A stretch of 64,000 bases of DNA from an uncultured Gammaproteobacteria bacterium (GCA_964342745.1 CAYFFW010000005.1:1046-65045), one strand, 5' to 3'. Positions 2,614 through 52,529 are shown, counted from the stretch's first letter. Notes: a model not told the origin generated them from the sequence alone. Numbers and translations: made by a program.

Positions 2614-2619
2614 CTAGTA

Positions 2620-3894: not shown

Positions 3895-3912
3895 AACTTT
3901 AAAGGAAAAACT

Positions 3913-6312: not shown

Positions 6313-6330
6313 TTTTTAGTAAAAACCTTC

Positions 6331-6359
6331 TTGACAAGCTATATTAGGGGGGTTTTAAT
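6331..6359 (+). promoter_or_regulatory. sigma70 promoter candidate for hupB
   Basis: Perfect -35 TTGACA (6331-6336), 17-nt spacer, -10 TTTAAT (6354-6359). Confidence 0.55.
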
Positions 6360-6414
6360 CTAATGAACCAGCCTGTTATTACAGGTTTAGCTTAACTATA
6401 TTCAGGAGATAAAT

Positions 6415-6684
6415 GTGAATAAAGCCCAATTAATAGATTCGGTAGCTTCAAAAGCTGATATGTCAAAAGCTGATGCCGGTAGAGCGGTAGATGCAACTTT
6501 AAGTGCCATTGGAGGCAGCCTTTCTGGAGGAGATAGTGTTTCACTTGTTGGATTCGGAACTTTTAGTGTTCGTCATAGAGCAGCAAGAATGGGTCGAAAC
6601 CCTCAAACTGGTGAAGCGATACAAATTAGTGCCTCAAAGTCTGTAGGTTTTAAGGCAGGAAAAGCACTAAAAGAAAGTCTTTAA
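6415..6684 (+). CDS. hupB: DNA-binding protein HU
   Basis: MNKAQLID... and [22 protein letters not shown] are the HU/IHF signature. GTG start preceded by AGGAG. Confidence 0.95.
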
Positions 6685-6701
6685 AAAGAATTTTAAGGAA
6701 T

Positions 6702-6731
6702 AAAAGCGCGCCTTTTTTGGCGCGTTTTTTT
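6702..6731 (+). terminator. intrinsic terminator after hupB
   Basis: Stem CGCGCC/GGCGCG with loop TTTTTT, followed by a T7 run and flanked by an A-run, so it may work in both directions. Confidence 0.8.
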
Positions 6732-6743
6732 AATGATAATAGT

Positions 6744-8627: not shown

Positions 8628-9414
8628 TTTCTTCTAAAGATTCCATTGCAGTTATATTAAAGCCTGCATCAACATAAAGTGTTTCACCTGTTATACCACT
8701 AGATAGGTCAGAGGCTAAGAATGTAGCAGCATTTCCTACCTCTTCAGTAGTAATATTTCTTCCTAGAGGAGCCCTCTTTTCATTATAAGAAAGCATTTTT
8801 CTGAAATTTTTAACGCCAGAAGCTGCCAAAGTTTTAATAGGGCCTGCTGAAATTGCATTCACCCTGTGTCCTTCTTTTCCTATAGATACAGCTAAGAATC
8901 TTACGCTAGATTCAAGACTAGCTTTTGCTAGACCCATAACATTGTAATTAGGTAATGTTTTTTGAGAACCAAGATAAGAAAGTGTTATTAGAGAACAGCT
9001 CCTTCCCTCCATAAGTTCTTTTGCACCTTTTGCTAGGGCAATAAAGCTGTATGAGCTTATATCATGAGCAATTTTAAATCCTTCTCTGGTAGTTACATCT
9101 AAAAAGTCACCATCTAACATTTCTCTGGGTGCAAACCCCACGGCATGAACTATGCAATCTATACCATCCCAATGATTTGATAGTTCTTTGAAGACCTTAT
9201 TTATTTCTTTGTCACTTGCGACATCACAAGGTAAACATATTTCAGAACCCCAGTCTTTAGCTAGGGCTTCGACCTTAGATTTAAGCCTTTCATTTTGATA
9301 TGTAAATGCTAAGTTAGCTCCGTAATTTGACATCGAATGGGCTATTCCGCTGGCTATAGAGTGTTTATTTGCAACCCCAACTATCAGGACGTTTTTATTT
9401 TTTAAGAGGGACAT
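8620..9414 (-). CDS. fabI: enoyl-[acyl-carrier-protein] reductase (NADH) FabI
   Basis: 264 aa. N-terminus [16 protein letters not shown] and the typical FabI layout along the full length. Confidence 0.93.
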
Positions 9415-9531
9415 TTCTTAGATTGTATTATAAATTTTTTAATTGCCTAGAATTAAATTAATCATTTTTATGGTCTAAAGGTATAAATTTAATTCTTTAA
9501 AGTAACAAAAAAGTGGCAATATATAGGCAAT

Positions 9532-9550
9532 ATGCGTACAATTCACGCAT
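9532..9550. promoter_or_regulatory. inverted repeat ATGCGT-N7-ACGCAT (candidate operator)
   Basis: Perfect 6-bp arms read directly, 68 nt upstream of the TBDR start. It is preceded by a direct repeat of GGCAAT at 9515-9520 and 9526-9531. Confidence 0.3.
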
Positions 9551-9617
9551 TAATTTGGGCTAACTGACTAGTTTGCCCAGTTTTTATAGTTTAACTAACA
9601 AGTTATCGGGGAGTTAT

Positions 9618-23123: not shown

Positions 23124-23337
23124 ACCAATTTAACCGACCTAGAAACAACTCGAGACGTTAAAAGGAGAGAAAAATTGGTTAGAGAAAGAAAGGAGAAAGC
23201 TCTAAAAGCAAAGCTAGCAAAAAAAGCTTTTAGACCACCAAGATAAAAAAGAGAAATTTATCGAGGAGCTAAACCAGAATCTCAAGTTTAGACACTTTCT
23301 TACTCGAACTAAACAGAGCCTTGGCTCTGTTTTTTTA
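23124..23337 (+). ncRNA. candidate small RNA (unclassified)
   Basis: Bounded by the promoter candidate and a strong intrinsic terminator. No ATG or GTG on either strand. A/G-rich with GGA motifs at 23122, 23163, 23191 and 23265. Hairpin TTAGAG(23178-83)/CTCTAA(23199-204) presents AAGGAG in its loop. The 5' end is estimated. Confidence 0.3.
23311..23337 (+). terminator. intrinsic terminator
   Basis: AAACAGAGCC-TT-GGCTCTGTTT followed by a T-run. It has no protein-coding gene upstream of it. Confidence 0.75.
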
Positions 23338-23386: not shown

Positions 23387-23462
23387 GGGGCTATAGCTCA
23401 GCTGGGAGAGCACTTGCGTGGCACGCAAGAGGTCGTCGGTTCGATCCCGACTAGCTCCACCA
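23387..23462 (+). tRNA. tRNA-Ala (anticodon GGC)
   Basis: Acceptor GGGGCTA/TAGCTCC with the G3:U70 Ala identity pair. Anticodon stem CTTGC/GCAAG with loop GTGGCAC, T-loop GGTTCGATCCC, encoded CCA. Confidence 0.9.
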
Positions 23463-34641: not shown

Positions 34642-34643
34642 TT

Positions 34644-35303
34644 TTAGATGGTCATTCCTTCAGAAAGCTCTATCTGGTCATCGCATCTTGAAGCAAGGTC
34701 GCTATCATGAGTTACTACCACTAAAGCATTTGAAGATTCTGCATTAACTTCAAAAAGTAGATCTGAAATCTTCGCTCCGGTTTTTTTATCTAAATTTCCT
34801 GTAGGTTCATCAGCAAATAAAACTTTTGCATTACAGGCAAAAGCTCTAGCTATGGCAACTCTTTGCTGTTCCCCACCTGAAAGCTGCCTTGGGTAATGTT
34901 GCAATCTATTACTTAATCCAACACGTTTTAAATATTCACTTGCTCTTGTCTCGGCTTCTGGATCTAAGTTAAGTTCAGAAGGAAGCATTACATTTTCTAA
35001 TGCTGTTAGCCCAGGAAGAAGTTCAAATGATTGGAAGACAAAAGCTACATTTTCTTTTCTAACTTCAGCCCTTTGATCTTCATTTAAGTCATGTAAAGGG
35101 TGGCTATTTAAATAAATCTCACCGGAAGAAGGTGAGTCTAGGCCTGCTAAAAGACCTAGCAAAGTTGACTTACCTGAACCAGAAGGTCCAATGACTGCTA
35201 TTGATTTTTCTTTTTCAAGCTCTAAGCTTATGCTGTTAAGAATAATCAACTCGCCCTCTTCAGAGGGCACTTTTTTTGTTAGATTAAGTGTTTTAATAAT
35301 CAT
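34644..35303 (-). CDS. ybbA: ABC transporter ATP-binding protein YbbA type
   Basis: Walker A GPSGSGKST, signature LSGGEQQRV, Walker B LFADEPTGNLD. Confidence 0.9.
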   Translation of the reverse strand: MIIKTLNLTKKVPSEEGELIILNSISLELEKEKSIAVIGPSGSGKSTLLGLLAGLDSPSSGEIYLNSHPLHDLNEDQRAEVRKENVAFVFQSFELLPGLTALENVMLPSELNLDPEAETRASEYLKRVGLSNRLQHYPRQLSGGEQQRVAIARAFACNAKVLFADEPTGNLDKKTGAKISDLLFEVNAESSNALVVVTHDSDLASRCDDQIELSEGMTI

Positions 35304-40077: not shown

Positions 40078-40173
40078 TTTTGGCTTAAAGTAAGTATTTT
40101 TCTTATAAAAGGTTTGCAAACTAAGTCAAAATTAAGCATAGTTTGTAGTGAAATTTTTTAATCTGGTTTTAAG

Positions 40174-40186
40174 GTCACTTTGTGAC
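40174..40186. promoter_or_regulatory. inverted repeat GTCAC-TTT-GTGAC
   Basis: Perfect palindrome 40 nt upstream of the TBDR ATG. Confidence 0.25.
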
Positions 40187-40225
40187 AGTAAATGCCAGGG
40201 TTTTAATTCATTTTTAGGGGGAGAT

Positions 40226-43183
40226 ATGAAATTAAAGTTCCTTATAAACTTAGCTTTTATCTCTATGTTTGGCTTCTCTTCTTTAGCTCTTATGGCTGAA
40301 GATGATGATGAAGAAGACAGAGATAGGGGTGGTATTGAAGAAATCACGGTAACGGCAGAAAAAAGGACCTCGACTGTATCTGATACATCTATGTCCATAA
40401 CTGCTTTTGATTCTAGTTTGATTGAAGATCTTGGATTACAAGGTGCAAACGACTTAATGGATCAACTACCAGCTACTACTCGAGATCCTTATGATGTAAG
40501 GATTCGTGGTGTTGGAAGAAACTTTAGAGCACTTGGTGGTGATCCAGGAGTTGCAACTTACTACAATGGTGTTTACTCACCAGACTTTGGTATAGCTGCT
40601 TCAGAAAACTACTATTATGACGTAGAGCGTATTGAGGTACTTCGTGGTCCTCAGGGTACTCTATATGGAAGAAATTCCATTGGTGGTGCTATTAATTATA
40701 TTACCAAGAAACCAAGTTTTGAAAACGGTGCTGAAGCCAGGATTCTAGCAGGTGATTACAGTAACATTCAGTATTATGGGATGGTTACTGGCCCAATTAC
40801 CGATAAGCTGGCATTCAGGGCTACAGCTGCAAAAATGGATAGAGATGGTACCCAGAAGTGTATTGGAGACTGTCGTGATCCTAGAAGCTTAGATGATTCA
40901 AATGAGGTTTTGACTCTTTTATGGCTGCCCAATGATGATATTGAGTTTCAAATAAGAGCAAATAACCGTCTGGTAGATAACATCATTCCCTCTAGAGTTC
41001 TCTTAGATTCAGGTTATGGTTCTTTAAGAGGCACTCAAGATACTTCCAATATGGTTCGTGGTGTAAGAAGAGCGACAGCTTCAACCCCAGGAGCTATAAG
41101 TTTTACTAATCCTACAACAGGAGAAGTTGGATATGGAGCTCCTTTAAGGGCTGGTGTTGATAATGCGGGCTGGCCAGGAAGATGGAACTCTTACTATGGT
41201 TCTACCTTGAATACTTTGAACACTTTTAATGTTGCTTTAAGTGATAATGAAAACTGTTGGGACTTCCCTTATCAGGGCGGATGTCAATCGAATCATCAGT
41301 ATTTCGAACATGAAGGAATTCAATCACATATAACTTGGCAAATGAATGACAGAACTGAAATTAAATACATTTATGGTTTTGTTGATTTTGACTATACGTT
41401 CAACATTGATTTAGATGGAACTGATGTTAGTTGGGACAAGTATGGAGTTACTGTTCTTGAGGATGTTCACATGAAGACCCATGAGATAACCATAAACTGG
41501 CAGATAGGTGAAGATGTTCTTATGACTTCAGGGTATTTCTATATGGATGAGAATAGAAAACAAAACTACAGTATTAGAAATAGCATTGGGGCAATTAAAA
41601 ATCCTGCTACTTATGGTGCTTATGATATTCCTCAAGCATTTTTAGGAGGAGTATCAACCGCAGCATTACTTGGCGCCACAAACACATGTACAACACCTCA
41701 AGTTGGGTGGGTAGGTTCGGCGCCTAATAACACAACCATCGCTTGTAGATGGGGGGGTGACGCTATGGGGCAGGTTTACCATCATATGAATGATGTACAG
41801 AATGATGCTACTGCTGTTTACACTCAAGGAACTTGGACTATTAATGAAGAGTTCGCTCTAGTAGTTGGTGCAAGATATGCAGAAGATGATAAAACTTGGT
41901 TAGAGCAAAGAGGCGGTTACGCTGAATTGTTTATGAACTTCTCAGGTGGCTGGGATTCAGTTTTAGCTCTTCAACAAGGGCAAGTTGGACCTTATTATGA
42001 ATTGTTAGGTTTTGCCCCTTGGTCAGGAGCAGTTCCTGAGCTAACACCACTAGCTTACGCCAACTTAATTATGGGTAATGCTGTTTACACAGGTGATCCA
42101 AACAACCCTATTGCACCTGTATGTCCGCTTGACCAGCAAGACACATGCGCAACTCCAATGAGATTGTTCCAAGGATTTCCTTACGGATACACTTCTACTA
42201 TTCCTGGTGATGATAAATGGAGTGATACAAACTACAGAGTGAACTTAGACTGGACACCAAACGGTGATCAGTTGTTTTACTTTGGAGTAACTACAGGATA
42301 TAGATCAGGTGGAGTGGCCTTAGGTATATCAGGTTCTAGGGATGAACAAAGAGATGAATTTGGACTTCCAACTGGCGCTGGTATCGAAGCAGTTTCTTAT
42401 GATAAAGAAAGAGTTGATTCTATTGAATTTGGTTATAAAGGAATTCATATGGATGATAAATTACAGCTATTCGCTTCGATCTATCATTATGATTATGATG
42501 GTTATCAAGATGTAGTAACTCAGTACGATCCTCTCAGAGGTGAAACTGCTGAATTCGCTTCAAACGCTGACGGTATTACTAATGAAGGATTTGAGATGGA
42601 GTTTGTTTATCAAGCAAGTGATAGATTAACTTTATCAGGAAACTTAAGTATTACTGAAACTGAATACGGGGAAGATTATTGGGTTATGACTACAGATGAC
42701 CCTATGAATCCACCTCAAATATTTGGAACCTTCACACAAGGAGTGGTAGGTAACTCCGGAACAGGTTCAGATGTTAATGGTGATGGAGTTATTGATGCTT
42801 CAGATTTTCCTTATGCAGAGAATGTGAAAGGAAATCCTCTTAAAGGAATACCTAGAGAGAAAGCAACTGTGAGGGCTACCTATGAAATGGACAGTAGGTG
42901 GGGTCCAATATGGTTATGGTTAAATCACTCTTTTACTGGAGACTTCTCAGCCTCAGGGATACAAAGAGCCTTAGATAGAATTCCTTCTAGGGAAACCACC
43001 AACTTAAGTGGTTCTTGGTGGAGTAGTGATGCAAAAATGTCTGTAAGAGTAGCAGTAAATAATGTCTTTGATAACGACAATATATACAGCATAAGCACTA
43101 CAACAAGTAGTGATAATTACAGCAAATATGGAGGTGCTTTATCTCCAAGAACTTTCTACGTGGATGTACGTTACAAGTTCTAA
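40226..43183 (+). CDS. TonB-dependent receptor
   Basis: Signal peptide, acidic stretch EDDDEEDRD, TonB box IEEITVTAEKR, plug motif [27 protein letters not shown] and C-terminal F. The ATG at 40226 follows GGGGGAG. Confidence 0.9.
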   Translation: MKLKFLINLAFISMFGFSSLALMAEDDDEEDRDRGGIEEITVTAEKRTSTVSDTSMSITAFDSSLIEDLGLQGANDLMDQLPATTRDPYDVRIRGVGRNFRALGGDPGVATYYNGVYSPDFGIAASENYYYDVERIEVLRGPQGTLYGRNSIGGAINYITKKPSFENGAEARILAGDYSNIQYYGMVTGPITDKLAFRATAAKMDRDGTQKCIGDCRDPRSLDDSNEVLTLLWLPNDDIEFQIRANNRLVDNIIPSRVLLDSGYGSLRGTQDTSNMVRGVRRATASTPGAISFTNPTTGEVGYGAPLRAGVDNAGWPGRWNSYYGSTLNTLNTFNVALSDNENCWDFPYQGGCQSNHQYFEHEGIQSHITWQMNDRTEIKYIYGFVDFDYTFNIDLDGTDVSWDKYGVTVLEDVHMKTHEITINWQIGEDVLMTSGYFYMDENRKQNYSIRNSIGAIKNPATYGAYDIPQAFLGGVSTAALLGATNTCTTPQVGWVGSAPNNTTIACRWGGDAMGQVYHHMNDVQNDATAVYTQGTWTINEEFALVVGARYAEDDKTWLEQRGGYAELFMNFSGGWDSVLALQQGQVGPYYELLGFAPWSGAVPELTPLAYANLIMGNAVYTGDPNNPIAPVCPLDQQDTCATPMRLFQGFPYGYTSTIPGDDKWSDTNYRVNLDWTPNGDQLFYFGVTTGYRSGGVALGISGSRDEQRDEFGLPTGAGIEAVSYDKERVDSIEFGYKGIHMDDKLQLFASIYHYDYDGYQDVVTQYDPLRGETAEFASNADGITNEGFEMEFVYQASDRLTLSGNLSITETEYGEDYWVMTTDDPMNPPQIFGTFTQGVVGNSGTGSDVNGDGVIDASDFPYAENVKGNPLKGIPREKATVRATYEMDSRWGPIWLWLNHSFTGDFSASGIQRALDRIPSRETTNLSGSWWSSDAKMSVRVAVNNVFDNDNIYSISTTTSSDNYSKYGGALSPRTFYVDVRYKF

Positions 43184-44165: not shown

Positions 44166-44984
44166 GTGAAGAAATTTTTTTACTTATTAATTCTTATCAG
44201 TAGTTTTATTACAGAAATATATGCTGAAAAAGATTTACCTAGGGGGCCACTCGGAAAGCCAGATCTAAATGGTGTCTGGCAAGTCTTAAATTCAGCTAAT
44301 TTTAATTTAGAAGCTCATGCTGCTAGCGCAGCACTTTCTTTGGTTGAAGGACCAGTTGTTCCTATTCCACATCCTAGTATTGTTGCCTTAGGTGCAGTAG
44401 GGTCTGTGCCTGCTGGCATGGGGGTTGTTGAAGGAGGGACTATTCCTTATAAAAAGTGGGCTTTAAATAAGAGAGATGAGAATAAGAAAAAATGGTTAGA
44501 AAGAGATCCAGAAATTAAATGTTACTTGCCTGGAGTGCCTAGGGCTAACTATATGCATTTACCCTTTCAAATTTTTCACAGTGAGAAAGCAGTCTTTTTT
44601 GCATATGAATATGCAGGAGCTGTGAGAAATATATATCTTGAGGATCCTGGTCCAGCGCCAGTTGATTCTTGGATGGGACAATCTTGGGGTTACTGGGATA
44701 AAGATACTTTTGTAGTTGAAGCCTCAGGTTTCAATGATCAAACTTGGTTTGATAGATCAGGTAATTTCCATAGTGAAGAATTAAAGGTTATTGAGAGGTA
44801 CACTTTATTGAATAACCACACAATGAGATACGAAGCTACCATAGAAGATGAAAAAGTTTTTACTAAACCTTGGAAAATAAGCATGACTTTATATAAGAGA
44901 GTTGGAAAGGATGCTCAATTACAACAATTTAAATGCGTTGAATTTGTAGAGGAATTACTTTATGGGCAATGGCGTGCTAAGTAA
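44166..44984 (+). CDS. secreted protein of unknown function (paralog A)
   Basis: Signal peptide ending IYA. It shares the motifs PDLNGVWQ, GYWDKDTFVVEASGF and VIERYT with the next gene. GTG start after AGGAGG. Confidence 0.7.
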   Translation: MKKFFYLLILISSFITEIYAEKDLPRGPLGKPDLNGVWQVLNSANFNLEAHAASAALSLVEGPVVPIPHPSIVALGAVGSVPAGMGVVEGGTIPYKKWALNKRDENKKKWLERDPEIKCYLPGVPRANYMHLPFQIFHSEKAVFFAYEYAGAVRNIYLEDPGPAPVDSWMGQSWGYWDKDTFVVEASGFNDQTWFDRSGNFHSEELKVIERYTLLNNHTMRYEATIEDEKVFTKPWKISMTLYKRVGKDAQLQQFKCVEFVEELLYGQWRAK

Positions 44985-45002
44985 AAAAAGGAGAAACTTA
45001 GA

Positions 45003-45983
45003 ATGAAAGGGTTAAAAGGTTTATTGATACTTGTTTTTATTAATAGCTGTGGTGTTGTTTTATCAGAAGAACAAATGAAAACTTGGTTTGGAGACCCAGA
45101 CTTACAAGGAACTTGGACTAACGCTAGCTTAACTACTTTAGAAAGACCTGATCAATTTAAGAGTTTAGTGGTTAGTGAAGAACAAGCTACAAGAGCTGAA
45201 GTAACCTCTGCTGCTTTTACTGAAGCTATAGACAACCCCTATGAAGAAGGTGAAACGCCAAAAGCAGGTGAAAATGTTGGAGGTTATAACACAGCTTGGA
45301 TGGATCCAGGCACAAAACTATTTAAGATTAATGGAGAATATAGAAGTTCTATTCTTACTTACCCTGAAGATGGAAAACTTCCTAGAAGGTGGGTTAGATG
45401 GGGGGTAGAAGGTCCCAGTATTTATCGTATGTTTTCTCAAGCAAATCATCCCGAGGAAAGGAGTCTAGGTGAAAGGTGTTTAGTGGGGTTCGGTTCAAGC
45501 GGCGGTCCTCCTATGTTAAATGTCTTATATAACAATCACTATCAAATTGTACAATCGCCTGGCTATGTGATGATTCTAGTGGAGATGAATCATGATGCTC
45601 GCATTATCCGTTTAAAAGGAAATCACCTTCCTGATCACATAAGACCCTGGTTAGGAGATTCTGTAGGTCACTGGGAAGGTAATACTTTAGTTGTAAAAAC
45701 CAAGAACCACCATTTGCAACAGCGCTTTAGAGCTGCAATCCGTCATCAAATACTTATTACTGAGGATGCAGAAATAACAGAAAGATTTACAAGGATTTCA
45801 GAAGATGAAATTCTTTATCAATTTGAGGTAGATGACAATGTTGCTTATAAAGATTCTTGGAAAGGCGAGATGCCATTAAGAGAAGCTGAAGGGAAGATCT
45901 ATGAATACGCTTGTCATGAAGGAAATTATGCCATGGCGAATATATTGGCAGGTGCAAGGGAAGAAGAAAGGAGGAATCAATGA
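45003..45983 (+). CDS. secreted or lipid-anchored protein of unknown function (paralog B)
   Basis: Signal peptide with a possible lipobox INSC. Motifs PDLQGTWT, GHWEGNTLVVKTKNH, ITERFT and YEYACHEGNY. Confidence 0.7.
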   Translation: MKGLKGLLILVFINSCGVVLSEEQMKTWFGDPDLQGTWTNASLTTLERPDQFKSLVVSEEQATRAEVTSAAFTEAIDNPYEEGETPKAGENVGGYNTAWMDPGTKLFKINGEYRSSILTYPEDGKLPRRWVRWGVEGPSIYRMFSQANHPEERSLGERCLVGFGSSGGPPMLNVLYNNHYQIVQSPGYVMILVEMNHDARIIRLKGNHLPDHIRPWLGDSVGHWEGNTLVVKTKNHHLQQRFRAAIRHQILITEDAEITERFTRISEDEILYQFEVDDNVAYKDSWKGEMPLREAEGKIYEYACHEGNYAMANILAGAREEERRNQ

Positions 45984-46420
45984 AACTTTATCTTAAATTT
46001 ATAGTTAGCATAAGTTGTTTAATTCTGTTTTCTAAAGTTTTCGCACATCACGCGTTTACAGCTGAATTTGATGCCAATGCTCCAATTAACATTACTGGAA
46101 AAGTTGTCAAGGTGGAGTGGATAAACCCTCATGCTTGGGTGCATGTTGAGGTGGAAGATGATAATGGAAAAACTATTTGGATGGTTGAAGGAGGAACTCC
46201 TAATACTCTTATTAGAAATGGAATTACAAAAAAAACATTAGTACCAGGCACAGTGATAGTAGTTAGAGGATATCAGAGTAAAGGACGTTTATGTTTGCCT
46301 AGATGTATAGCTAACGGAAGAGACGTTACTTTTCCTGACGGGAGCAAGGTATTTATGGGGTCATCTGGTACAGGAGCTCCTAGAGATGGTTCAGATCCAA
46401 GAGAACCTAAAAGGAAGTAG
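45980..46420 (+). CDS. small secreted protein of unknown function (from memory, resembles a DUF6152-type family)
   Basis: Predicted signal-peptide cleavage VFA/HHAF would leave an N-terminal His-His. All-beta-like sequence GKVVKVEWINPHAWVHVEV. Its start overlaps the upstream stop by 4 nt. Confidence 0.7.
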   Translation: MKLYLKFIVSISCLILFSKVFAHHAFTAEFDANAPINITGKVVKVEWINPHAWVHVEVEDDNGKTIWMVEGGTPNTLIRNGITKKTLVPGTVIVVRGYQSKGRLCLPRCIANGRDVTFPDGSKVFMGSSGTGAPRDGSDPREPKRK

Positions 46421-46443
46421 CTCTCTTAAGGCCTATCCTTCAA

Positions 46444-46875
46444 GTGAAAAAAAAATCTTTATTTATAATTTTAATTCTCTCTTTTATCCAAGTGCATGCT
46501 TCGGAATATGAGCACTCTGAGGTTCATGATTTGATGGCTTATATATTAGATCCTGCTGCTGAAGTTATTTGGGATTCGGCAGGTTTTATTATTACGGAAG
46601 AGGGAGAAACTAACTTAGCACCAACTAATCAAGAAGAATGGGATAGAGTTAAACATGCAGCTAAAGTAATCTCTGGAAGTTCTTATTTACTTTCTAGACC
46701 AGAGGTTGTTGCAGATAAGACTCAATGGGTTTCTCTATCAATCGCTTTAAAGGGGGTAGGGGAGAAGCTTTTTGAAGCAGCAGAAAATAAAGATTCTGAG
46801 AGTCTTTTTAAAACAGGTGCCGAGTTATATCAAGTTTGTGTAGCTTGTCATCAAGTCTATTGGATTAAAGACTAG
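46444..46875 (+). CDS. periplasmic class-II-like c-type cytochrome
   Basis: Signal peptide and a single CVACH heme motif 8 residues from the C-terminus (nt 46837-46851). The mature ~125-aa region looks helical. Confidence 0.65.
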   Translation: MKKKSLFIILILSFIQVHASEYEHSEVHDLMAYILDPAAEVIWDSAGFIITEEGETNLAPTNQEEWDRVKHAAKVISGSSYLLSRPEVVADKTQWVSLSIALKGVGEKLFEAAENKDSESLFKTGAELYQVCVACHQVYWIKD

Positions 46876-46903
46876 TAAGAGCTTTATATAGCTAGTTAAG
46901 AAG

Positions 46904-47473
46904 ATGTTAGAAATAGTTATATGGCTGTCTGAAACTAAGTGGAGCATAGCATTAGTTGAGTCTCTTTATCTCTATCCTTGGATTGAGTCAGCACATGTAC
47001 TTTCTATCTGTTTCTTTGTAGGTATATTGATATTCGTTGATTTACGGTTGATGGGGCTAGTGTTTAATAAATTACCTATCTCAGAGATGAATAGGAAAGT
47101 ACTGCCTTGGTCTTTATTTGGATTTGGGTTAATGACTATAACTGGGTTTTTGCTTTTTTACGCAATTCCTATAAGAAGTTATCAAAATATTTTCTTTAGG
47201 ATGAAGATTATCTTGATCGTACTAGCAGGCTTGAATGCCTATTTATTTCATAAACAGATGAAAAATAATGGAGATAAATGGGACGAAAGTAAAAATATTC
47301 CTAAAAGCGTAAAATTTAAAGCTACTGCATCTTTGTGTCTTTGGGCTTTGGTTATAATTTCTGGTCGTATGATTGCATACAATTGGTTTGATTGTGATAG
47401 ACAACCTCAACCAGAGTGGGTTAATTGGGCTGCAGGTTGTGTTGTTGAGTTATCTAATTTTGAGGATTTCTAG
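46904..47473 (+). CDS. integral membrane protein of unknown function (paralog 1)
   Basis: Four hydrophobic helices. Motif PWIESAHVL...VDLRLMGL is shared with the next gene. Confidence 0.65.
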   Translation: MLEIVIWLSETKWSIALVESLYLYPWIESAHVLSICFFVGILIFVDLRLMGLVFNKLPISEMNRKVLPWSLFGFGLMTITGFLLFYAIPIRSYQNIFFRMKIILIVLAGLNAYLFHKQMKNNGDKWDESKNIPKSVKFKATASLCLWALVIISGRMIAYNWFDCDRQPQPEWVNWAAGCVVELSNFEDF

Positions 47474-47952
47474 TGGGATCAGAGAAAATACTTTATATAT
47501 TTGATAACTTGGAGCAATCCTTTATCGGAGAGGCTATTAGGAACTCAATTTGGATGTTTCCTTTTATTGAAGCAATTCACTTGATAGGTTTAGCAATTCT
47601 TGGGGGTTCTATCTTAGTTGGAGATTTAAGGCTTTTAGGTTTAATGCTCTCTTCTAGACCTATTAATTATGTAATTAGTCAGACCACCTTCGCTATAAAA
47701 CTTGGTTTATTTGTTTTGATTTCAACGGGAATACCCCTGTTTTTAAGTGAAGCTATTAAGCTTTACTACAGTAGAGCCTTTTGGATAAAAATGATTACCT
47801 TGATAATAGGATTATTTTTCTTATTTTTTATAAGAAATCCTTTTGCCTTAAAAGCTGAAACAGACACTAATGTATTTAAGATTATAGGCGTATTATCTAT
47901 ATCTACATGGGCTATTATTGCTGGTGCTGGTAGATGGATTGGTTTTTCTTAA
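47473..47952 (+). CDS. integral membrane protein of unknown function (paralog 2)
   Basis: Four hydrophobic helices. Motif PFIEAIHLI...GDLRLLGL. The GTG start shares 1 nt with the upstream TAG. Confidence 0.65.
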   Translation: MGSEKILYIFDNLEQSFIGEAIRNSIWMFPFIEAIHLIGLAILGGSILVGDLRLLGLMLSSRPINYVISQTTFAIKLGLFVLISTGIPLFLSEAIKLYYSRAFWIKMITLIIGLFFLFFIRNPFALKAETDTNVFKIIGVLSISTWAIIAGAGRWIGFS

Positions 47953-47973: not shown

Positions 47974-49350
47974 ATGAATTCAAACCCTAACTCTCTTAGT
48001 CTTGGCGTAAAGGTTGGTTATGGAATAGGGGATATAGCCATATGCCTCTATTGGAGTGGAGTTGGTCTTTATCTAATGTATTTTTATACTGATGTTGTAG
48101 GCATTTCACCTGTTTTGGCAAGTGCAATTTATTCCATAGGTATGGCTTGGGACGCTATCACAGACCCTTCAATGGGTTTCCTTGCTGAAAGAACTAGAAC
48201 AAGGTGGGGTGTTTATAGGCCCTATTTATTATTTGGAAATATTCCTTTAGCTCTTTCATTTATTCTTCTGATGTGGGTCCCTCCTTTTGAAGGAACTGCC
48301 CTTTTTATATTTCTCTTGTTTGCAAATTTATTGCATAGAACATGTTTCACTATTGTAAGTGTTCCTTTTTCCTCTTTAACACCAAGAATCACTGAAGATA
48401 GCCAACAAAGAACTAATCTTACTGGTTTTCGGATGATGGGAGCACAGACGGGTACCAACTTGATGTCAGCTTTTGCCTTTCCTATTGTATTTTGGTTTGG
48501 AATGGGCGATGAAGCTAAAGGTTTTGTATTTATGGCAATGATCGCAGGAATTACTGCTCTCATCATTCACAGTATTACCTTTTATACGGTAAAAGAACCG
48601 CAACAAGATCAGGGAATAGAAAGGGTAGGAGAAAATTTTCTCGAAATTGCTAAATCAATTAGGCGAAATAAACCTTTCTGGTTAGTTTTTTCTGCTACCT
48701 TAATAGTTGGTGTTACAACTATATTTTTTGGTAATAGTTTAGTTTATTACTCGAAATACGCTTTGGGATTGCATGAATATCAAGGCACTATTTTATTTAC
48801 TAATGGAATAGTTGCTTTTGCCAGCATTCCAATCTGGTGGTTAATCTCAAATAAAATTGGTAAACGTCATACTTGGTTAATATCAATGAGTATTACTTTA
48901 ATTGCTTTTATTTGCTTTTATCTTTACCCAATATCAACACTTAAAGAACTATTAGTTTTAGTTGCATTTATAGGATTTGGTGCGGGAGCTGGAGGTATCC
49001 TTTTTTGGTCTATGTTACCAGATACTATTGAGTATGGAGAGGTGTATACAGGAGTCAGAAGCGAATCATCTCTTTATGGTTTTATGACTTTTGCTCAAAA
49101 AGGATCTATAGCTCTAGCTATTCTAATATTTGGATTTGTCTTTAGTTTTATAGGCTTTGAAGCTAACCAAGTTCAAAGTGCAGAAACTATTTCTTCCATG
49201 AAAAGAATTATGAGTATTATCCCTGCTTTTGGTGTGGCGTTAAGTTTAGTTGTAATTTATTTCTATCCCATAGACACAGAAACTCATAAACAATTATTGG
49301 AGCAAATTAAAAGTAAAAATCATAAGCTGGAGGCTTTAGAAGAAATATGA
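47974..49350 (+). CDS. MFS transporter, glycoside-pentoside-hexuronide:cation symporter-like
   Basis: 458 aa, about 12 TM. GYGIGDIA and DAITDPSMGFLAERTRTRWG are typical of the GPH/MelB family. Confidence 0.8.
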   Translation: MNSNPNSLSLGVKVGYGIGDIAICLYWSGVGLYLMYFYTDVVGISPVLASAIYSIGMAWDAITDPSMGFLAERTRTRWGVYRPYLLFGNIPLALSFILLMWVPPFEGTALFIFLLFANLLHRTCFTIVSVPFSSLTPRITEDSQQRTNLTGFRMMGAQTGTNLMSAFAFPIVFWFGMGDEAKGFVFMAMIAGITALIIHSITFYTVKEPQQDQGIERVGENFLEIAKSIRRNKPFWLVFSATLIVGVTTIFFGNSLVYYSKYALGLHEYQGTILFTNGIVAFASIPIWWLISNKIGKRHTWLISMSITLIAFICFYLYPISTLKELLVLVAFIGFGAGAGGILFWSMLPDTIEYGEVYTGVRSESSLYGFMTFAQKGSIALAILIFGFVFSFIGFEANQVQSAETISSMKRIMSIIPAFGVALSLVVIYFYPIDTETHKQLLEQIKSKNHKLEALEEI

Positions 49351-51353
49351 TCAACTGGGGTATTTTAGGAACCGGGATGATAGCTAGGGCATTAGCTGTT
49401 TCTATAAGAGATAGTGAGGGTTGTAACCTAAAAGCAGTTGCCAGTAGAGAAATTGAAAAGGCAGAAAGATTTTCTGATAAATACAATTGTTTGCCTGTAG
49501 AGGGTTATAAAAATCTACTTGAAGACGATGAATTAGATGCAATTTATGTGGCTACTCCACATGATTCACATTTTGATCTAGCTCTGGCTTCGCTAAAAGC
49601 AAAGAAGTCTGTGCTTTGCGAAAAGCCTATGACTATAAATTCTACAGAGGCGATGGTACTTATAGATACCGCTCGAAATAATGAAGTTTTATTGATGGAA
49701 GCCTTTATGTACAGAACACATCCACAGACCGATAAAGTACGTGAATTAGTAAAAAAAGAATTTAAAAAAAGTCCCTTAACCATTGAAGCTTCTTTTGGCT
49801 TCTCAGCTGATGTGCCAAAAGAACACCGTTTGGTAAACCCTGATTTAGGAGGGGGGTCCATTATGGATATAGGATGTTACCCTATGTCTATGTCTCGAAT
49901 GATAGTGGGTACTCAAGAGGAAAAGCTGTTTTCTAATCCCATTTCAATTAAAGCTAAAGGTGAATTATCTGAAAGAGGAATAGATTTAAATGCATCTGCA
50001 GAATTAGATTTTGAGAATGGTTCTAAAGCTCTAATTAGCTCAGCCATTAATAAAACTTTAAAAAATACAGTTCTTATTTCAAATGATGATAAATCAATTT
50101 TAATTGAAGAGCCTTGGCAGTGTGGCGAACAAGTAGGTCGTAAATCTAAAATTATTTTTAAGAGTAAAGGGTTTGATGATCAGGTAATTGATTTTAAAGA
50201 AAATAAAGGTGTTTTTACTTTTGAAGTAGATCATTTTGCCAATCTTATTCGTCAAAAAAAGACTGAATCAAAAAAAGTTTCTCATGCAGATTCTCATGGA
50301 AATATGATCTGGCTTGATGCCTGGAGGAAGAAGATAGGAGTTTACTACGCAGCTGATAATCCTGAAATAAGGAAATCATCTGTTCTAGGAAAAGAGGCTC
50401 TTAAAAATCCAAAAAATATGCCCTTTAATTCCATAAGAGGTTTAGATAAGAAGGTGTCCAGGGTTGTTTTTGGGTGTGACAATCAATCTAGCACAGACCA
50501 TGCTTTTGCTATGTTTGATCATTTTTTTTCCTTGGGTGGTAATGCTTTTGATACAGCTTATATTTATAACAATGGAAAAAGTGATGTTTATCTGGGGAAG
50601 TGGATGGCTCATAGAGGTCTAAGAGAGAAGGTAGTTGTTCTCGGCAAGGGAGCTCACACTCCACATTGTTACCCTGATTTAATAAGACCGCAACTAGAAG
50701 AATCGTTAGATAGATTGCAGACAGATTATCTAGATATTTACTGTTTACATAGAGATAACTTGGAAGTTCCAGTTAGTGAGTTTGTCGATGCATTAGATGA
50801 AATTAAAAAAGATGGTTTAATCAAGTTATCTGGTGCATCAAACTGGAGTTTAAAAAGGTTTTCAGATGCAATTTCTTATGCTGAAGACTCTAATAAACAG
50901 CCTTTTAGTATTTTAAGTAATAACTTTAGTCTAGCTAAAATGCTGACTCCTGTTTGGCCAGGTTGCGAGAGTTGTTCTGAGGAAGAGTTTAAGGATTACT
51001 TGAAAGAAAAACAAATTCCTATTTTTCCCTGGTCTAGTCAGGCAAGAGGCTTTTTTCTTGATAAACAGGAGTTTCAAGGATCTTTGCACATAGCAAATCC
51101 TAATCAAGAAGAAAAAGACAGGGTTTGGTTTAATGAAGATAATGTTGAAAGAAGAAATAGGTGCTTTTCTTTAGCAAAGGATAAGGGTGTTGAAGCCATT
51201 GAGCTGGCTCTAGCTTTTGTATTAAATCAAGAGTTTCCATCCTATCCTTTAATTGGCCCAAGGAATTATTTTGAAACGAGAAGCTCCCTTAAAGCGTTGA
51301 ATATAGATCTAAGTAACTTAGAAAGAGACTGGTTAGATTTAAAGAGCGACTAG
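49347..51353 (+). CDS. fusion protein: Gfo/Idh/MocA oxidoreductase (N) + aldo/keto reductase (C)
   Basis: The N-terminal half has WGILGTGMIA and LCEKPMT. The C-terminal half has FDTAYIYNNGKSDVYLGKWM and a typical AKR barrel. Confidence 0.8.
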   Translation: MINWGILGTGMIARALAVSIRDSEGCNLKAVASREIEKAERFSDKYNCLPVEGYKNLLEDDELDAIYVATPHDSHFDLALASLKAKKSVLCEKPMTINSTEAMVLIDTARNNEVLLMEAFMYRTHPQTDKVRELVKKEFKKSPLTIEASFGFSADVPKEHRLVNPDLGGGSIMDIGCYPMSMSRMIVGTQEEKLFSNPISIKAKGELSERGIDLNASAELDFENGSKALISSAINKTLKNTVLISNDDKSILIEEPWQCGEQVGRKSKIIFKSKGFDDQVIDFKENKGVFTFEVDHFANLIRQKKTESKKVSHADSHGNMIWLDAWRKKIGVYYAADNPEIRKSSVLGKEALKNPKNMPFNSIRGLDKKVSRVVFGCDNQSSTDHAFAMFDHFFSLGGNAFDTAYIYNNGKSDVYLGKWMAHRGLREKVVVLGKGAHTPHCYPDLIRPQLEESLDRLQTDYLDIYCLHRDNLEVPVSEFVDALDEIKKDGLIKLSGASNWSLKRFSDAISYAEDSNKQPFSILSNNFSLAKMLTPVWPGCESCSEEEFKDYLKEKQIPIFPWSSQARGFFLDKQEFQGSLHIANPNQEEKDRVWFNEDNVERRNRCFSLAKDKGVEAIELALAFVLNQEFPSYPLIGPRNYFETRSSLKALNIDLSNLERDWLDLKSD

Positions 51354-51407
51354 CATTTATAGAATTGTTTCAATCTTTGGTATAATTTTTTAAAAATAGG
51401 GGGACAT

Positions 51408-52478
51408 ATGTCAGAAACGGTTGCTAATCCAGAATATAATCCTGCAGGGGTAGGGGATTGTATAGATACAAATAAACTACCTTGGTTACCTTTGTCGAAT
51501 GTAGAAGGTCTTTCCATTAAGCCAGCAAGAGCAAGTTCGGAAAGCGGAATCTTTAGCGTGATAATGAAAATTGATAAAGGAGCTTCTATACCTGAATCTG
51601 TTTATTTAGGTGGTATGGATATGTTAGTTCTTTCTGGGAAGGCTGAGTACGAACAGGAAGGTTCCAAAAGTACTCTTAATCCAGGAACATGGGGTTTTAT
51701 CTCAGCTAACTCAAGAGTTAATTCCTTTCTAGCTTTAGAAGATACAGAAATACTTGCTAACTTCTTTAGTGGCGTTGCATTTTTAAATGAGGACGGTTCT
51801 TTAAGTTCTTTGTTCACAGCCATGGATGTTCAACAGATGGCTAAAGATACTAAGATTTTACTTGTTCCAAGTTCACTTTCAGCTTGCATGGAAGTAGAGG
51901 GAGAACCTTATAAGGGTAATGGAGAGCCATTATCGATAGCTTCTGGAAATGCTGGAAAACTTGTCAACGACAATGTAGAAACTGAATCTAGCTCAGAAGT
52001 AACTCATCCACATTTTGTAGATACTCGTTCAGTTCCATGGCTTGTTTTGCCAGGAATGGAGGATGTTGGTCTTAAAATTCTTAGAGTAAGTGAAGAAACG
52101 GGTTATGTCTCTTTAATAGTTAGACATAATGGTGTTGCTGATCCTCATACTCATATTGGAGCTAGTGACTTTCTGGTATTACAAGGAAGGTTAGGAGTTA
52201 GAGCTGGACCACCTGAAGGTTATGGACCCGGTATTTGGTTTTACGAACCTGCTGGTGCTAGACATGATGCAACGCAAAGGGTAACAGACGAAGATTTAAT
52301 CTATACAGCTAATCTTTATGGACCCGTTATGTTTGATTCAGGACCTGGAACCCAAATAGAAAATATTCTTTCTTGGGTTGAATACAAAGGGATGGCAGAA
52401 GCAAATGGAATTAAACTAGTTCCAAGCACTAGACCAGATGACTCAAGCTTACTAGCTTGGGCACCTTTATCAGCTTAA
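51408..52478 (+). CDS. bicupin protein (two ChrR-like cupin domains)
   Basis: Two repeats of the LPW-L/VLP...G(L/V)..K.L pattern. The second carries DPHTHIGASDFLVLQG. Confidence 0.65.
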   Translation: MSETVANPEYNPAGVGDCIDTNKLPWLPLSNVEGLSIKPARASSESGIFSVIMKIDKGASIPESVYLGGMDMLVLSGKAEYEQEGSKSTLNPGTWGFISANSRVNSFLALEDTEILANFFSGVAFLNEDGSLSSLFTAMDVQQMAKDTKILLVPSSLSACMEVEGEPYKGNGEPLSIASGNAGKLVNDNVETESSSEVTHPHFVDTRSVPWLVLPGMEDVGLKILRVSEETGYVSLIVRHNGVADPHTHIGASDFLVLQGRLGVRAGPPEGYGPGIWFYEPAGARHDATQRVTDEDLIYTANLYGPVMFDSGPGTQIENILSWVEYKGMAEANGIKLVPSTRPDDSSLLAWAPLSA

Positions 52479-52490: not shown

Positions 52491-52529
52491 ATAGACCTGC
52501 TTTTCTTTACAAAGCGGGTCTATCTTTTT
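52491..52529 (+). terminator. intrinsic terminator candidate
   Basis: ATAGACCTGC...GCGGGTCTAT stem followed by CTTTTT. Confidence 0.6.

What the first reader, a model, noticed from the sequence alone, without database searches (positions are those of the whole stretch)
44166..47952. Six-gene block of exported and membrane proteins around a c-type cytochrome, with no recognisable enzyme family
Six consecutive same-strand genes are separated by -4 to +28 nt. They encode two paralogous signal-peptide proteins (272 and 326 aa), a 146-aa exported protein whose predicted mature N-terminus is His-His, a 143-aa exported protein with one C-terminal CxxCH heme motif, and two paralogous four-TM proteins with a conserved intramembrane His. 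Every product is extracytoplasmic, and none shows a motif of a characterised enzyme or transporter family that I can recognise. The block lies between a TBDR plus C-N hydrolase and an MFS symporter. Together this looks like a self-contained periplasmic/inner-membrane redox or metal-handling module of unknown role.
Basis: partly seen in the sequence, partly recalled or inferred. Interest (0 to 1): 0.7.

Follow-up and report, generated by a model that had tools for sequence, protein, structure and literature searches.

The report
Conserved periplasmic metal-redox gene module
Six neighbouring genes of a marine SAR86 bacterium form an unnamed module, conserved across several bacterial phyla, that most likely captures a trace metal such as copper in the periplasm and passes it, with a one-electron step, to the inner membrane; no part of it has ever been studied.

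Summary
Six co-directional genes (44166-47952) are separated by -4 to +28 nt, and all six products are exported or membrane proteins.

- **g1 and g2:** paralogs of a large superfamily (8,095 representatives at 50% identity) with no Pfam family and no PDB relative by sequence, profile or fold.
- **g3:** DUF6152, a predicted OB-fold. Its mature N-terminus is His-His in 79 of 79 copies examined.
- **g4:** a class II-like cytochrome c with an invariant Met and a C-terminal CxxCH.
- **g5 and g6:** paralogous DUF6644 proteins with four TM helices, distantly HemJ/DUF2214/CopD-like. Each has one invariant His at the periplasmic membrane face.

The set recurs in SAR86, Alphaproteobacteria, Steroidobacteraceae, Acidobacteriota and Myxococcota with shuffled gene order. 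The neighbouring TBDR, C-N hydrolase and MFS genes are not part of it.

In six loci the DUF6644 pair is replaced by an unrelated HupE/UreJ-2 protein. That family belongs to the Ni/Co-permease superfamily, and its His1 domains were recently shown to bind Cu/Ni.

**Best reading (about 0.4):** redox-assisted capture and hand-off of a transition metal. **Main rival (about 0.3):** a periplasmic oxidoreductase wired to the quinone pool through haem b.

No literature exists on these families.

The parts
44166..44984 (+). g1: exported 272-aa protein and the most conserved member of the module. It belongs to an unnamed superfamily whose C-terminal half is a beta-rich (faintly calycin-like) domain followed by a C-terminal helix. 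Two Cys are invariant (C119, C257).
   Evidence: ORF. No Pfam or NCBIfam hit. At least 8,000 homolog clusters, all unnamed. 65-70% identity across phyla. AF2 model with pLDDT 75 and pTM 0.72. No significant PDB fold match, best E = 7e-3. Invariant residues.
45003..45983 (+). g2: exported 326-aa paralog of g1. It represents the commoner type in the superfamily and carries two near-invariant His (H197 in EMxHDAR, H305 in ACHEGNY) that g1 lacks.
   Evidence: Paralogy E = 3e-11. Conservation. An exhaustive search found 8,095 representatives at E <= 1e-3. No Pfam or PDB relative by profile.
45980..46420 (+). g3: DUF6152, an exported 146-aa OB-fold protein whose mature N-terminus is His-His. Further invariant residues are H51, H55, a C105-x3-C109 pair and a conserved tail predicted to be disordered.
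   Evidence: PF19649 at 9e-28. Alignment. AF2 model with pLDDT 82. Foldseek probability 1.0 to OB-folds. HH after an AxA site in 79 of 79 copies. Adjacent to g1 in 71 of 80 loci, median distance 236 nt.
46444..46875 (+). g4: exported 143-aa monohaem c-type cytochrome, class II-like. It has an invariant Met31 and a C-terminal C132xxC135H136. Many non-SAR86 homologs are lipoproteins.
   Evidence: PF01322 at E = 0.0017 and 19.7 bits, below the 26.5-bit cut-off. A profile search hits at least 25 cytochrome c' chains at E = 0.02-0.1 over the C-terminal helices. Invariant residues and lipoboxes.
46904..47473 (+). g5: DUF6644 paralog a, 189 aa, four TM helices, N-out/C-out. H31 at the periplasmic end of TM1 is invariant, as are T80-G81, K101 and G154-R155. 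The acidic periplasmic tail carries two invariant Cys (C164, C179).
   Evidence: PF20349 at 1.6e-8, with weak UPF0093/HemJ and DUF2214 hits. Conservation. Topology by the positive-inside rule.
47473..47952 (+). g6: DUF6644 paralog b, 159 aa, four TM helices. H36, T85-G86, K106 and G153-R154 are invariant. It always occurs next to g5, so the two probably form a heterodimer.
   Evidence: PF20349 at 7e-30. Paralogy E = 4e-11. g5 and g6 co-occur in 50-51 of 80 loci and are always adjacent.

Best explanation
The six genes encode an autonomous extracytoplasmic metal-handling module with a built-in redox step.

**Proposed mechanism.** After signal-peptide cleavage, g3 (DUF6152) exposes a free N-terminal His-His on an OB-fold. 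This acts as a histidine-brace-type chelator for a transition metal, most likely Cu(II), with Ni, Co or Fe as alternatives. H51 and H55 may help. g1 and g2 are periplasmic partner or ligand-binding subunits of a new fold family: g1 works with g3, while g2 carries its own His/Glu site. g4, a His/Met class II cytochrome c, supplies or removes one electron, for example Cu(II) to Cu(I). The g5/g6 heterodimer is the inner-membrane conduit that receives the metal, or in the rival reading the electron.

**Shown:** gene structure, export signals, family assignments, the OB-fold, the universal post-cleavage His-His, synteny, and the replacement of g5/g6 by HupE/UreJ-2.

**Inferred:** metal binding, the identity of the metal, the direction of transfer, the role of the cytochrome, and physical complexes between the proteins.
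For: 1. His-His directly follows an AxA signal-peptidase site in 79 of 79 DUF6152 copies, including those only distantly related. A post-signal-peptide His1 is an experimentally validated predictor of Cu/Ni-binding proteins (PMC12537917).
2. g3 models as an OB-fold. From my own knowledge, the periplasmic Cu/Ag chaperones CusF and SilF have this fold; only listed a SilF paper.
3. In six loci (L016, L018, L069, L073, L074, L079) the same g1+g3 pair and the same cytochrome are kept. The DUF6644 pair, however, is replaced in the same operon slot by a PF13795 HupE/UreJ-2 protein (3e-51) plus a His-bearing membrane-anchored protein. The two membrane families are unrelated (hhalign probability 0.5%).
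4. PF13795 belongs to the Ni/Co-permease superfamily. Its His1 domains bind Cu2+ at 62-74 nM and Ni2+ at 220 nM (PMC12537917).
5. DUF6644 members give weak hits to CopD, DUF2214 and UPF0093.
6. Metal-uptake modules that combine periplasmic binders, a permease and a redox partner have precedents: EfeUOB/M (listed, PMC9174327) and FtrABCD (read, PMC5681537).
7. The module is conserved as a unit while its flanks vary.
Against: - No metal-responsive regulator, Fur box or riboswitch lies nearby, and the neighbours are not metal genes.
- g1 is 65-70% identical across phyla and lacks a classical metal-ligand cluster. That looks more like an enzyme subunit than a chaperone partner.
- The invariant DUF6644 residues at the periplasmic membrane face include a Lys and an Arg beside the single His. 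This suits haem-propionate binding better than a cation pathway.
- The best Pfam relative of DUF6644 is HemJ, a proven b-type haemoprotein.
- PQQ-like dehydrogenases are the most frequent neighbours, sometimes in one operon with the DUF6644 genes. This points to electron transfer.
- I could not test whether H23, H24, H51 and H55 cluster in 3D, because model coordinates are not exposed.
Confidence: 0.4

Rival explanations
1. The module is a periplasmic oxidoreductase with its own wire to the respiratory chain. g1/g2/g3 form a soluble catalytic complex, with the g3 His-His metal centre as the active site. g4 shuttles electrons. g5/g6 form a HemJ-like heterodimer that binds one haem b through one His from each subunit, as in SdhC/SdhD, and exchanges electrons with the quinone pool. 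The complex may also serve neighbouring PQQ-type dehydrogenases.
For: - g4 is an electron-transfer-type cytochrome with invariant Met plus CxxCH.
- DUF6644 hits UPF0093/HemJ in 10 of 27 members, best E = 8e-5. HemJ is a dimeric b-type haem membrane protein (PMC13564367).
- There is exactly one invariant His per paralog, the two genes are always paired, and invariant Lys and Arg sit at the same periplasmic membrane level.
- PQQ-like beta-propeller dehydrogenases neighbour the module in 21 of 80 loci across phyla. In L036, L037 and L046 they lie in the same operon as the DUF6644 genes, and some carry fused cytochrome c domains.
- The fusion protein P0371 links a CxxCH-bearing domain to a g2-like domain.
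Against: - Replacement of DUF6644 by a HupE/UreJ-2 permease-family protein in six loci is hard to reconcile with a haem-b quinol anchor.
- In 15 loci with DUF6644 there is no cytochrome gene within 4 kb.
- No substrate, cofactor-biogenesis or quinone-site signature was identified.
- The HemJ similarity is below family cut-offs.
Confidence: 0.3
2. The module handles a hydrophobic small molecule such as a lipid, isoprenoid, quinone or tetrapyrrole. g1 and g2 are calycin-like periplasmic carriers that deliver a ligand to, or remove it from, a HemJ-like membrane enzyme (g5/g6). g3 and g4 act as redox helpers.
For: - The C-terminal half of g1 is a beta-barrel-like domain plus helix with faint calycin/FABP resemblance.
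- The superfamily is fused to or paired with lipase-type DUF3089 alpha/beta-hydrolases: P0299, and DUF3089 genes immediately adjacent to g1 in L017, L034, L045 and L075.
- It is also fused to a squalene-hopene-cyclase-like domain in P0371.
- HemJ, the best relative of DUF6644, oxidises a hydrophobic tetrapyrrole.
- Periplasmic beta-lactamase-fold hydrolases and a MacB/YbbP-type ABC system recur nearby.
Against: - The fold resemblance is not significant (best E = 7e-3, TM at most 0.47).
- The reading does not explain the universal His-His of g3 or the HupE/UreJ-2 swap.
- The hydrolase neighbours are lineage-restricted.
Confidence: 0.12
3. The six genes are part of a substrate-specific uptake locus centred on the adjacent TonB-dependent receptor. 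On this reading they process whatever that receptor imports, together with the C-N hydrolase and the MFS transporter.
For: - The window shows one co-directional array from the TBDR (40148) to a terminator at 52491.
- The same TBDR, C-N hydrolase and MFS context occurs in six SAR86 loci.
- The distant Novosphingobium variant also sits among two TBDRs, an M20 amidohydrolase and a permease.
Against: - A TBDR lies within 10 kb in only 11 of 80 loci, and within 1.5 kb in 4.
- Other SAR86 clades place the module next to unrelated genes.
- The conserved unit is the six-gene set, not the flanks.
Confidence: 0.05

Closest known systems
CopC/CopD and YcnI/YcnJ copper-acquisition systems
   Same: Both have a periplasmic protein whose mature N-terminal His chelates Cu(II) and works with a His-bearing polytopic inner-membrane protein. 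DUF6644 gives weak Pfam hits to CopD and its relatives. YcnI/YcnJ papers were listed (PMC8424229, PMC12362106).
   Different: g3 is an OB-fold, not a cupredoxin- or Ig-like sandwich, and has no sequence similarity to CopC or YcnI. DUF6644 has 4 TM helices and comes as two paralogs, whereas CopD has 8 TM helices. CopCD has no counterpart of g1/g2 and no dedicated cytochrome c.
HupE/UreJ-2 'anglerase' permeases (PF13795; PMC12537917)
   Same: Both have a post-signal-peptide His1 as the metal-capture device next to a membrane conduit. A PF13795 protein replaces g5/g6 in six loci that otherwise keep g1, g3 and g4.
   Different: The window itself has no PF13795 gene, and DUF6644 is unrelated to it (hhalign 0.5%). 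In anglerases the His1 domain is fused to the permease; here it is a separate OB-fold protein. DUF6152 and DUF6644 are absent from that paper and its supplements.
HemJ / PgdH2 (UPF0093), protoporphyrinogen IX dehydrogenase
   Same: HemJ is the best-scoring characterised relative of DUF6644: a small 4-TM protein with a conserved His in TM1 that oligomerises.
   Different: Scores are below the family cut-off. DUF6644 occurs as an obligate paralog pair inside a periplasmic module, not as a haem-biosynthesis gene. Haem binding is untested.
Class II cytochromes c (cytochrome c', c-556; cytochrome b562 fold)
   Same: Both have a single CxxCH a few residues from the C-terminus, matching length, and profile similarity over the last two helices. 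An invariant N-proximal Met matches the low-spin c-556/b562 type.
   Different: The Pfam score of 19.7 is below the 26.5-bit cut-off, and the PDB E-values of 0.02-0.1 are not significant individually. The four-helix bundle was not modelled.
EfeUOB/M and FtrABCD redox-assisted iron uptake
   Same: The logic is the same: periplasmic metal binders, an inner-membrane permease and a dedicated redox partner in one operon (PMC9174327, listed; PMC5681537, read).
   Different: No component is homologous. There is no FTR1 permease with REXXE motifs, no cupredoxin or P19, no DyP peroxidase and no polyferredoxin. The resemblance is by analogy only.
CusF/SilF periplasmic OB-fold metallochaperones
   Same: Both are small exported OB-fold proteins proposed to carry a metal ion. 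A SilF paper was listed (PMC10656224); the fold assignment of CusF/SilF rests on my own knowledge.
   Different: There is no sequence similarity: a DUF6152 profile finds nothing in the PDB. CusF uses a Met/His/Trp Cu(I) site inside the barrel, not a free N-terminal His-His.

Membership tests
DUF6152 (PF19649) | Pfam HMM score above the gathering cut-off (27 bits) | tested here: met
   g3 scores 96.6 bits, E = 9e-28.
DUF6644 (PF20349) | Pfam HMM score above the gathering cut-off (27 bits) | tested here: met
   g5 scores 35.3 bits and g6 104.6 bits. All 27 aligned relatives match.
Class II cytochrome c (PF01322, cytochrome c') | Pfam score above the gathering cut-off (26.5 bits) | tested here: not met
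   19.7 bits, E = 0.0017. The profile-versus-PDB search hits cytochromes c' only at E = 0.02-0.1.
Class II cytochrome c (PF01322, cytochrome c') | Single CxxCH haem-attachment motif close to the C-terminus | tested here: met
   C132-x-x-C135-H136 of 143 residues, invariant in 18 diverse homologs.
Class II cytochrome c (PF01322, cytochrome c') | Four-helix-bundle fold | not tested
Histidine-brace copper proteins (CopC, YcnI, LPMO, anglerases) | Histidine as the first residue of the mature protein after signal-peptide cleavage | tested here: met
   HH follows an AxA-type site in 79 of 79 DUF6152 copies. The cleavage site is inferred from sequence, not measured.
Histidine-brace copper proteins (CopC, YcnI, LPMO, anglerases) | Beta-sandwich (cupredoxin-, Ig- or FnIII-like) scaffold | tested here: not met
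   The g3 model is an OB-fold barrel.
Histidine-brace copper proteins (CopC, YcnI, LPMO, anglerases) | Measured Cu(II) binding with T-shaped N3 or N2O coordination | not testable with these tools
   This needs purified protein and EPR or crystallography.
CopD (PF05425) | Pfam match and the typical 8-TM architecture | tested here: not met
   Neither window protein hits CopD. Only 2 of 27 relatives do, at E about 0.009. g5 and g6 have 4 TM helices each.
HemJ / UPF0093 (PF03653) | Pfam score above the gathering cut-off (34.2 bits) | tested here: not met
   g5 scores 14.7 bits, E = 0.038. 10 of 27 relatives hit weakly, best E = 7.8e-5.
HemJ / UPF0093 (PF03653) | Non-covalently bound haem b | not testable with these tools
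   Only the invariant TM1 His plus Lys and Arg at the same membrane level are seen.
HupE/UreJ-2 (PF13795) | Homology of the window's membrane proteins to PF13795 | tested here: not met
   hhalign of DUF6644 against the HupE/UreJ-2 proteins gives probability 0.5%. PF13795 proteins occur only in six variant loci.
Lipocalin/calycin superfamily (for g1/g2) | Significant structural match to an 8- to 10-stranded calycin barrel | tested here: inconclusive
   The best calycin-type hits (CRABP-II, Tp0751, NanoLuc) have E = 0.04-0.12 and TM 0.35-0.47 relative to the target. The model pLDDT is 75.
TBDR-centred substrate-utilisation locus | Consistent adjacency of a TonB-dependent receptor to the module | tested here: not met
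   A TBDR lies within 10 kb in 11 of 80 loci.
EfeUOB / FtrABCD | FTR1-family permease, cupredoxin or P19 binder, DyP or polyferredoxin partner | tested here: not met
   No such Pfam families occur in any of the six proteins. FTR1 appears only at E = 0.063 in 2 of 27 DUF6644 relatives.

The most novel reading that the evidence does not exclude
The module is a previously unrecognised class of periplasmic histidine-brace metalloenzyme. The free N-terminal His-His of the OB-fold protein DUF6152 would be a catalytic copper site. It would be held and fed substrate by the new-fold g1/g2 barrels. Electrons would come from a private wire made of a class II cytochrome c and a HemJ-like haem-b membrane heterodimer. 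That would make it a bacterial periplasmic counterpart of LPMO- or pMMO-type oxidative chemistry acting on small organic molecules, in one of the ocean's most abundant heterotroph lineages and in many soil bacteria.
Probability: 0.15. Interest if true: 0.9.

Novelty: new variant of a known kind. Interest (0 to 1): 0.64.

Why it matters
SAR86 is among the most abundant heterotrophic lineages of the surface ocean. There copper, iron, nickel and cobalt are scarce and mostly bound to organic ligands. How SAR86 acquires or uses these metals in the periplasm is essentially unknown.

This module is conserved from SAR86 to soil Acidobacteriota and Myxococcota. g1 and g3 each have at least 8,000 clusters at 90% identity, and the g1/g2 superfamily has 8,095 representatives at 50% identity. 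Yet no component has a name, a structure or a paper.

It offers several things:
- a concrete, testable candidate for a new N-terminal-histidine metalloprotein on an OB-fold scaffold;
- a large protein superfamily with no known fold relative;
- a natural experiment, the swap between DUF6644 and HupE/UreJ-2, that can tell whether HemJ/CopD-like four-helix membrane proteins move metals or electrons.

Cultured carriers exist (Steroidobacter, Povalibacter, Phenylobacterium), so genetics is feasible.

Tried and rejected
- **PDB sequence and profile searches** for g1, g3, g4, the g1/g2 superfamily, DUF6644, DUF6152 and the 189-aa anchor protein found nothing significant.
- **Foldseek of the g1 model against the PDB** gave no significant hit. 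The hot-dog, Rieske-oxygenase and calycin matches have TM below 0.5.
- **Literature searches** by DUF name, Pfam accession or InterPro accession returned zero papers. One search was wasted on word-start matches to 'hupe'.
- **The P0364 'g2+DUF6152' fusion** was rejected as a frameshift artefact: Arg-rich nonsense separates the good stretches. It counts only as evidence of adjacency.
- **The idea that g3's His-His completes in trans, in g1, the His pair that g2 has in cis** could not be tested by adjacency, because of the g1-g2-g3 gene order. It needs multimer modelling.
- **Fur box and riboswitch searches** found none.
- **An alternative cytochrome in g4-less loci** was not found.
- **The plasmid collection** holds only 28%-identical Novosphingobium relatives, and those records are unannotated.
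- **The last homolog search, with the DUF6644 profile,** returned only close SAR86 relatives and added no new context.
- **The neighbour census** found only heterogeneous housekeeping or catabolic genes.

Full report
**1. Observation**

The junctions are +18, -4, +23, +28 and -1 nt, and clear Shine-Dalgarno sequences precede g1, g2 and g3. No credible intrinsic terminator lies inside the block. The first strong one is at 52491-52523, so in this genome the block sits in a longer co-directional array that starts with the TonB-dependent receptor at 40148.

- g1 and g2 are paralogs (E = 3e-11), as are g5 and g6 (E = 4e-11).
- g1-g4 begin with signal peptides.
- g5 and g6 each have four hydrophobic segments. 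By the positive-inside rule they are N-out/C-out.
- The closest loci elsewhere are SAR86 MAGs and single-cell genomes, with up to 85-87% protein identity.
- All six proteins exist verbatim in NCBI, Tara, JGI or ENA data, unnamed or 'hypothetical'.

**2. What the proteins are**

*g1 and g2.* Pfam and NCBIfam recognise neither protein. A profile of the superfamily also finds no Pfam family and no PDB chain. An exhaustive HMMER search with g2 counts 8,095 representatives at 50% identity (3,343 at E <= 1e-10), so this is a large unnamed superfamily. The AF2 model of g1 (pLDDT 75, pTM 0.72) has an irregular N-terminal half and a confident beta-rich C-terminal half followed by a helix. Foldseek finds no significant PDB match, only faint calycin/FABP-like resemblance. 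The superfamily core is a Cys pair plus E194, R200, E260, R261 and D278 (g2 numbering), kept even in 28%-identical copies. g2-type members add two near-invariant His that g1-type members lack.

*g3.* g3 is DUF6152 (9e-28). Its model (pLDDT 82) is an OB-fold. H23-H24, H51, H55, C105 and C109 are invariant, and so is a tail predicted to be disordered. In 79 of 79 copies, including the most distant ones, His-His directly follows an AxA-type signal-peptidase site.

*g4.* g4 has an invariant Met31 and a C-terminal CxxCH. It gives consistent sub-threshold matches to cytochromes c'. Many homologs are lipoproteins.

*g5 and g6.* Both are DUF6644. About 40% of relatives weakly hit HemJ/UPF0093 and DUF2214, and a few hit CopD. 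The invariant residues (one His, T-G, Lys, G-Arg) all lie at the periplasmic membrane face. g5 has an acidic periplasmic tail with two invariant Cys.

**3. Conservation of the set**

A scan of one genome per species returned 399 relatives of g1, and I analysed the best 80 loci. HMM searches of all ORFs gave the following counts for the 42 loci with at least 6 kb on both sides.

| Component present | Share of loci |
|---|---|
| g3 | 86% |
| g5+g6 | 67% |
| g2 | 67% |
| g4 | 62% |
| all six | 43% |

The taxa include SAR86, Phenylobacterium, Hyphomonadaceae, Steroidobacteraceae, Sulfurifustaceae, Acidobacteriota (Vicinamibacterales, Bryobacterales) and Myxococcota. Gene order is shuffled into three units, [g1-(g2)-g3], [g4] and [g5-g6], which lie in tandem, convergent or divergent. 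That pattern argues for functional linkage rather than inherited order.

g1 keeps 65-70% identity across these phyla. One 6.7-Mb genome carries two copies. A Novosphingobium megaplasmid carries a 28%-identical variant that still combines g1-like genes, two DUF6152 genes and two DUF6644 genes.

**4. What is not part of the module**

A TBDR lies within 10 kb in only 11 of 80 loci. The TBDR, C-N hydrolase, MFS and GFO-AKR context is restricted to some SAR86 clades. Other immediate neighbours are heterogeneous: RpoD, PurT, aldose epimerase, SDR, 2OG oxygenase, acyl-CoA carboxylase and others. There is no riboswitch or Fur box.

**5. Informative variation**

(a) *Membrane-part swap.* In six loci the DUF6644 pair is replaced, directly downstream of the cytochrome gene, by a PF13795 HupE/UreJ-2 protein (3e-51) and a 189-aa membrane-anchored protein with invariant His motifs. 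The two membrane families are unrelated. PF13795 belongs to the Ni/Co-permease superfamily. A 2025 study showed that PF13795 proteins carry post-signal-peptide His1 domains that bind Cu2+ at 62-74 nM and Ni2+ at 220 nM through a mono-histidine brace. The same study showed that a post-cleavage His1 is a general predictor of metalloproteins (PMC12537917). DUF6152 and DUF6644 are not in that paper or its supplements.

(b) *PQQ-like neighbours.* Divergent PQQ-like beta-propeller dehydrogenases, some with fused cytochrome c, neighbour the module in 21 of 80 loci across phyla. In L036, L037 and L046 they share an operon with the DUF6644 genes.

(c) *Other partners of the g1/g2 barrels.* DUF3089 alpha/beta-hydrolase genes sit immediately next to g1 in L017, L034, L045 and L075. 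One DUF3089 domain is fused to a g2-like domain in P0299. P0371 fuses a CxxCH-bearing squalene-hopene-cyclase-like domain to a g2-like domain.

(d) *Cytochrome not obligatory.* Fifteen loci with DUF6644 have no cytochrome gene within 4 kb.

**6. Mechanism**

I commit to a redox-assisted metal capture and hand-off module, at confidence about 0.4.

- g3 chelates a transition metal with its free N-terminal His-His. Cu(II) is most likely, by analogy with every characterised His1 protein.
- g1 partners g3, and g2 has its own His/Glu site.
- g4 performs a one-electron step.
- g5/g6, or HupE/UreJ-2 in the variant loci, is the inner-membrane conduit.

What is shown: gene anatomy, export, families, the OB-fold, the universal His-His, synteny and the membrane-part swap. 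What is inferred: metal binding, metal identity, direction of transfer, protein complexes and the cytochrome's role.

The main rival (about 0.3) keeps the same anatomy but reads g5/g6 as a HemJ-like haem-b heterodimer that links a periplasmic g1/g2/g3 oxidoreductase, and possibly the PQQ-type dehydrogenases, to the quinone pool. Points in its favour:
- HemJ is a proven b-type haemoprotein (PMC13564367).
- There is one invariant His per paralog.
- Lys and Arg sit at the same membrane level as that His.
- PQQ-like dehydrogenases are frequent neighbours.

The HupE/UreJ-2 swap argues against it. A hydrophobic-ligand-handling reading (about 0.12) and a TBDR-locus reading (about 0.05) are weaker.

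**7. Comparison with known systems**

By logic the module resembles CopC/CopD and YcnI/YcnJ, HupE/UreJ-2 anglerases, and EfeUOB/FtrABCD. By homology it belongs to none of them.
- g3 fails the beta-sandwich criterion of histidine-brace proteins.
- DUF6644 fails the CopD and HemJ cut-offs.
- g4 fails the cytochrome c' cut-off.
- No FTR1, cupredoxin, P19 or DyP component is present.

Membership holds only for the two DUF families.

**8. Novelty and interest**

The parts are built on familiar principles: N-terminal His chelation, a c-type cytochrome, and a four-helix His-bearing membrane protein. The combination, however, has not been described, nor have the OB-fold His-His protein or the g1/g2 superfamily. 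I rate it a new variant of a known kind, meaning periplasmic metal or redox modules. There is a 0.15 chance that it is a new class of histidine-brace oxidoreductase.

Its breadth, its abundance in SAR86 and the complete lack of annotation make it a worthwhile experimental target. The function remains inferred.

Noticed in passing
window 23128-23317 (+): An IMES-1 RNA motif (RF02034) scores 137.6 bits against a gathering score of 81. A tRNA follows it at 23387-23459. Two more tRNAs lie at 44-118 and 557-629.
   Followed up: no
L016, L018, L069, L073, L074, L079 (e.g. L073:11507-13366, minus strand): A variant operon reads cytochrome c lipoprotein, then HupE/UreJ-2 (PF13795), then a 189-aa membrane-anchored protein with invariant YDMHAEP and GIHGWFWENR motifs and no Pfam or PDB relative. 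It replaces the DUF6644 pair next to g1+g3.
   Followed up: partly
L004:13697-15496 (-), L036:4714-6522 (-), L046:6237-8306 (-), L081:7477-9642 (+), and others: A divergent PQQ-like beta-propeller family scores below the methanol/ethanol dehydrogenase cut-off and is also similar to 'acido-empty-quinoprotein'. Some members carry fused cytochrome c. It neighbours the module in 21 of 80 loci across phyla. The window itself has none.
   Followed up: partly
L017:8871-9995, L034:8806-9900, L045:8836-9930, L075:12411-13697; proteins P0299 and P0371: DUF3089 alpha/beta-hydrolase genes overlap or abut g1 in loci that lack g3-g6. DUF3089 is fused to a g2-like domain in P0299. P0371 fuses a CVSCH-bearing squalene-hopene-cyclase-like domain to a g2-like domain.
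   Followed up: partly
L001:4892-6843, L002:10782-12796, L003:10761-12751: The closest SAR86 relatives carry two tandem g2 copies (60% and 75-84% identical to the window's g2). The window has one.
   Followed up: no
window 32191-35303 (-): A MacB/YbbP-type ABC pair (816-aa FtsX/MacB_PCD permease plus 219-aa ATPase) lies about 9 kb upstream. The same family sits upstream of g1 in 14 of 80 loci, including Alphaproteobacteria.
   Followed up: partly
window 40148-40228: The TBDR ORF as listed starts at a GTG (40148). An ATG at 40226 with a GGGGGAG Shine-Dalgarno and a typical signal peptide (MKLKFLINLAF...) is the more likely start.
   Followed up: no
window 49347-52478 (+): Downstream in the same array lie a 668-aa fusion of a GFO/IDH/MocA oxidoreductase with an aldo/keto reductase and a 356-aa ChrR-type cupin (Cupin_7). 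The strong terminator at 52491-52523 follows.
   Followed up: no
L081 (ena:ERZ26167216, 6.7-Mb contig) 1080-12402: One genome carries two copies of the g1-g2-DUF6152 unit within 12 kb. They are separated by IS110 and DDE transposase genes and a quinohaemoprotein-type PQQ dehydrogenase.
   Followed up: no
protein P0364: An apparent g2+DUF6152 fusion in the representative library is a frameshifted merge of two adjacent genes from a high-GC assembly. This is a caution for Rosetta-stone inference from metagenomic proteins.
   Followed up: yes
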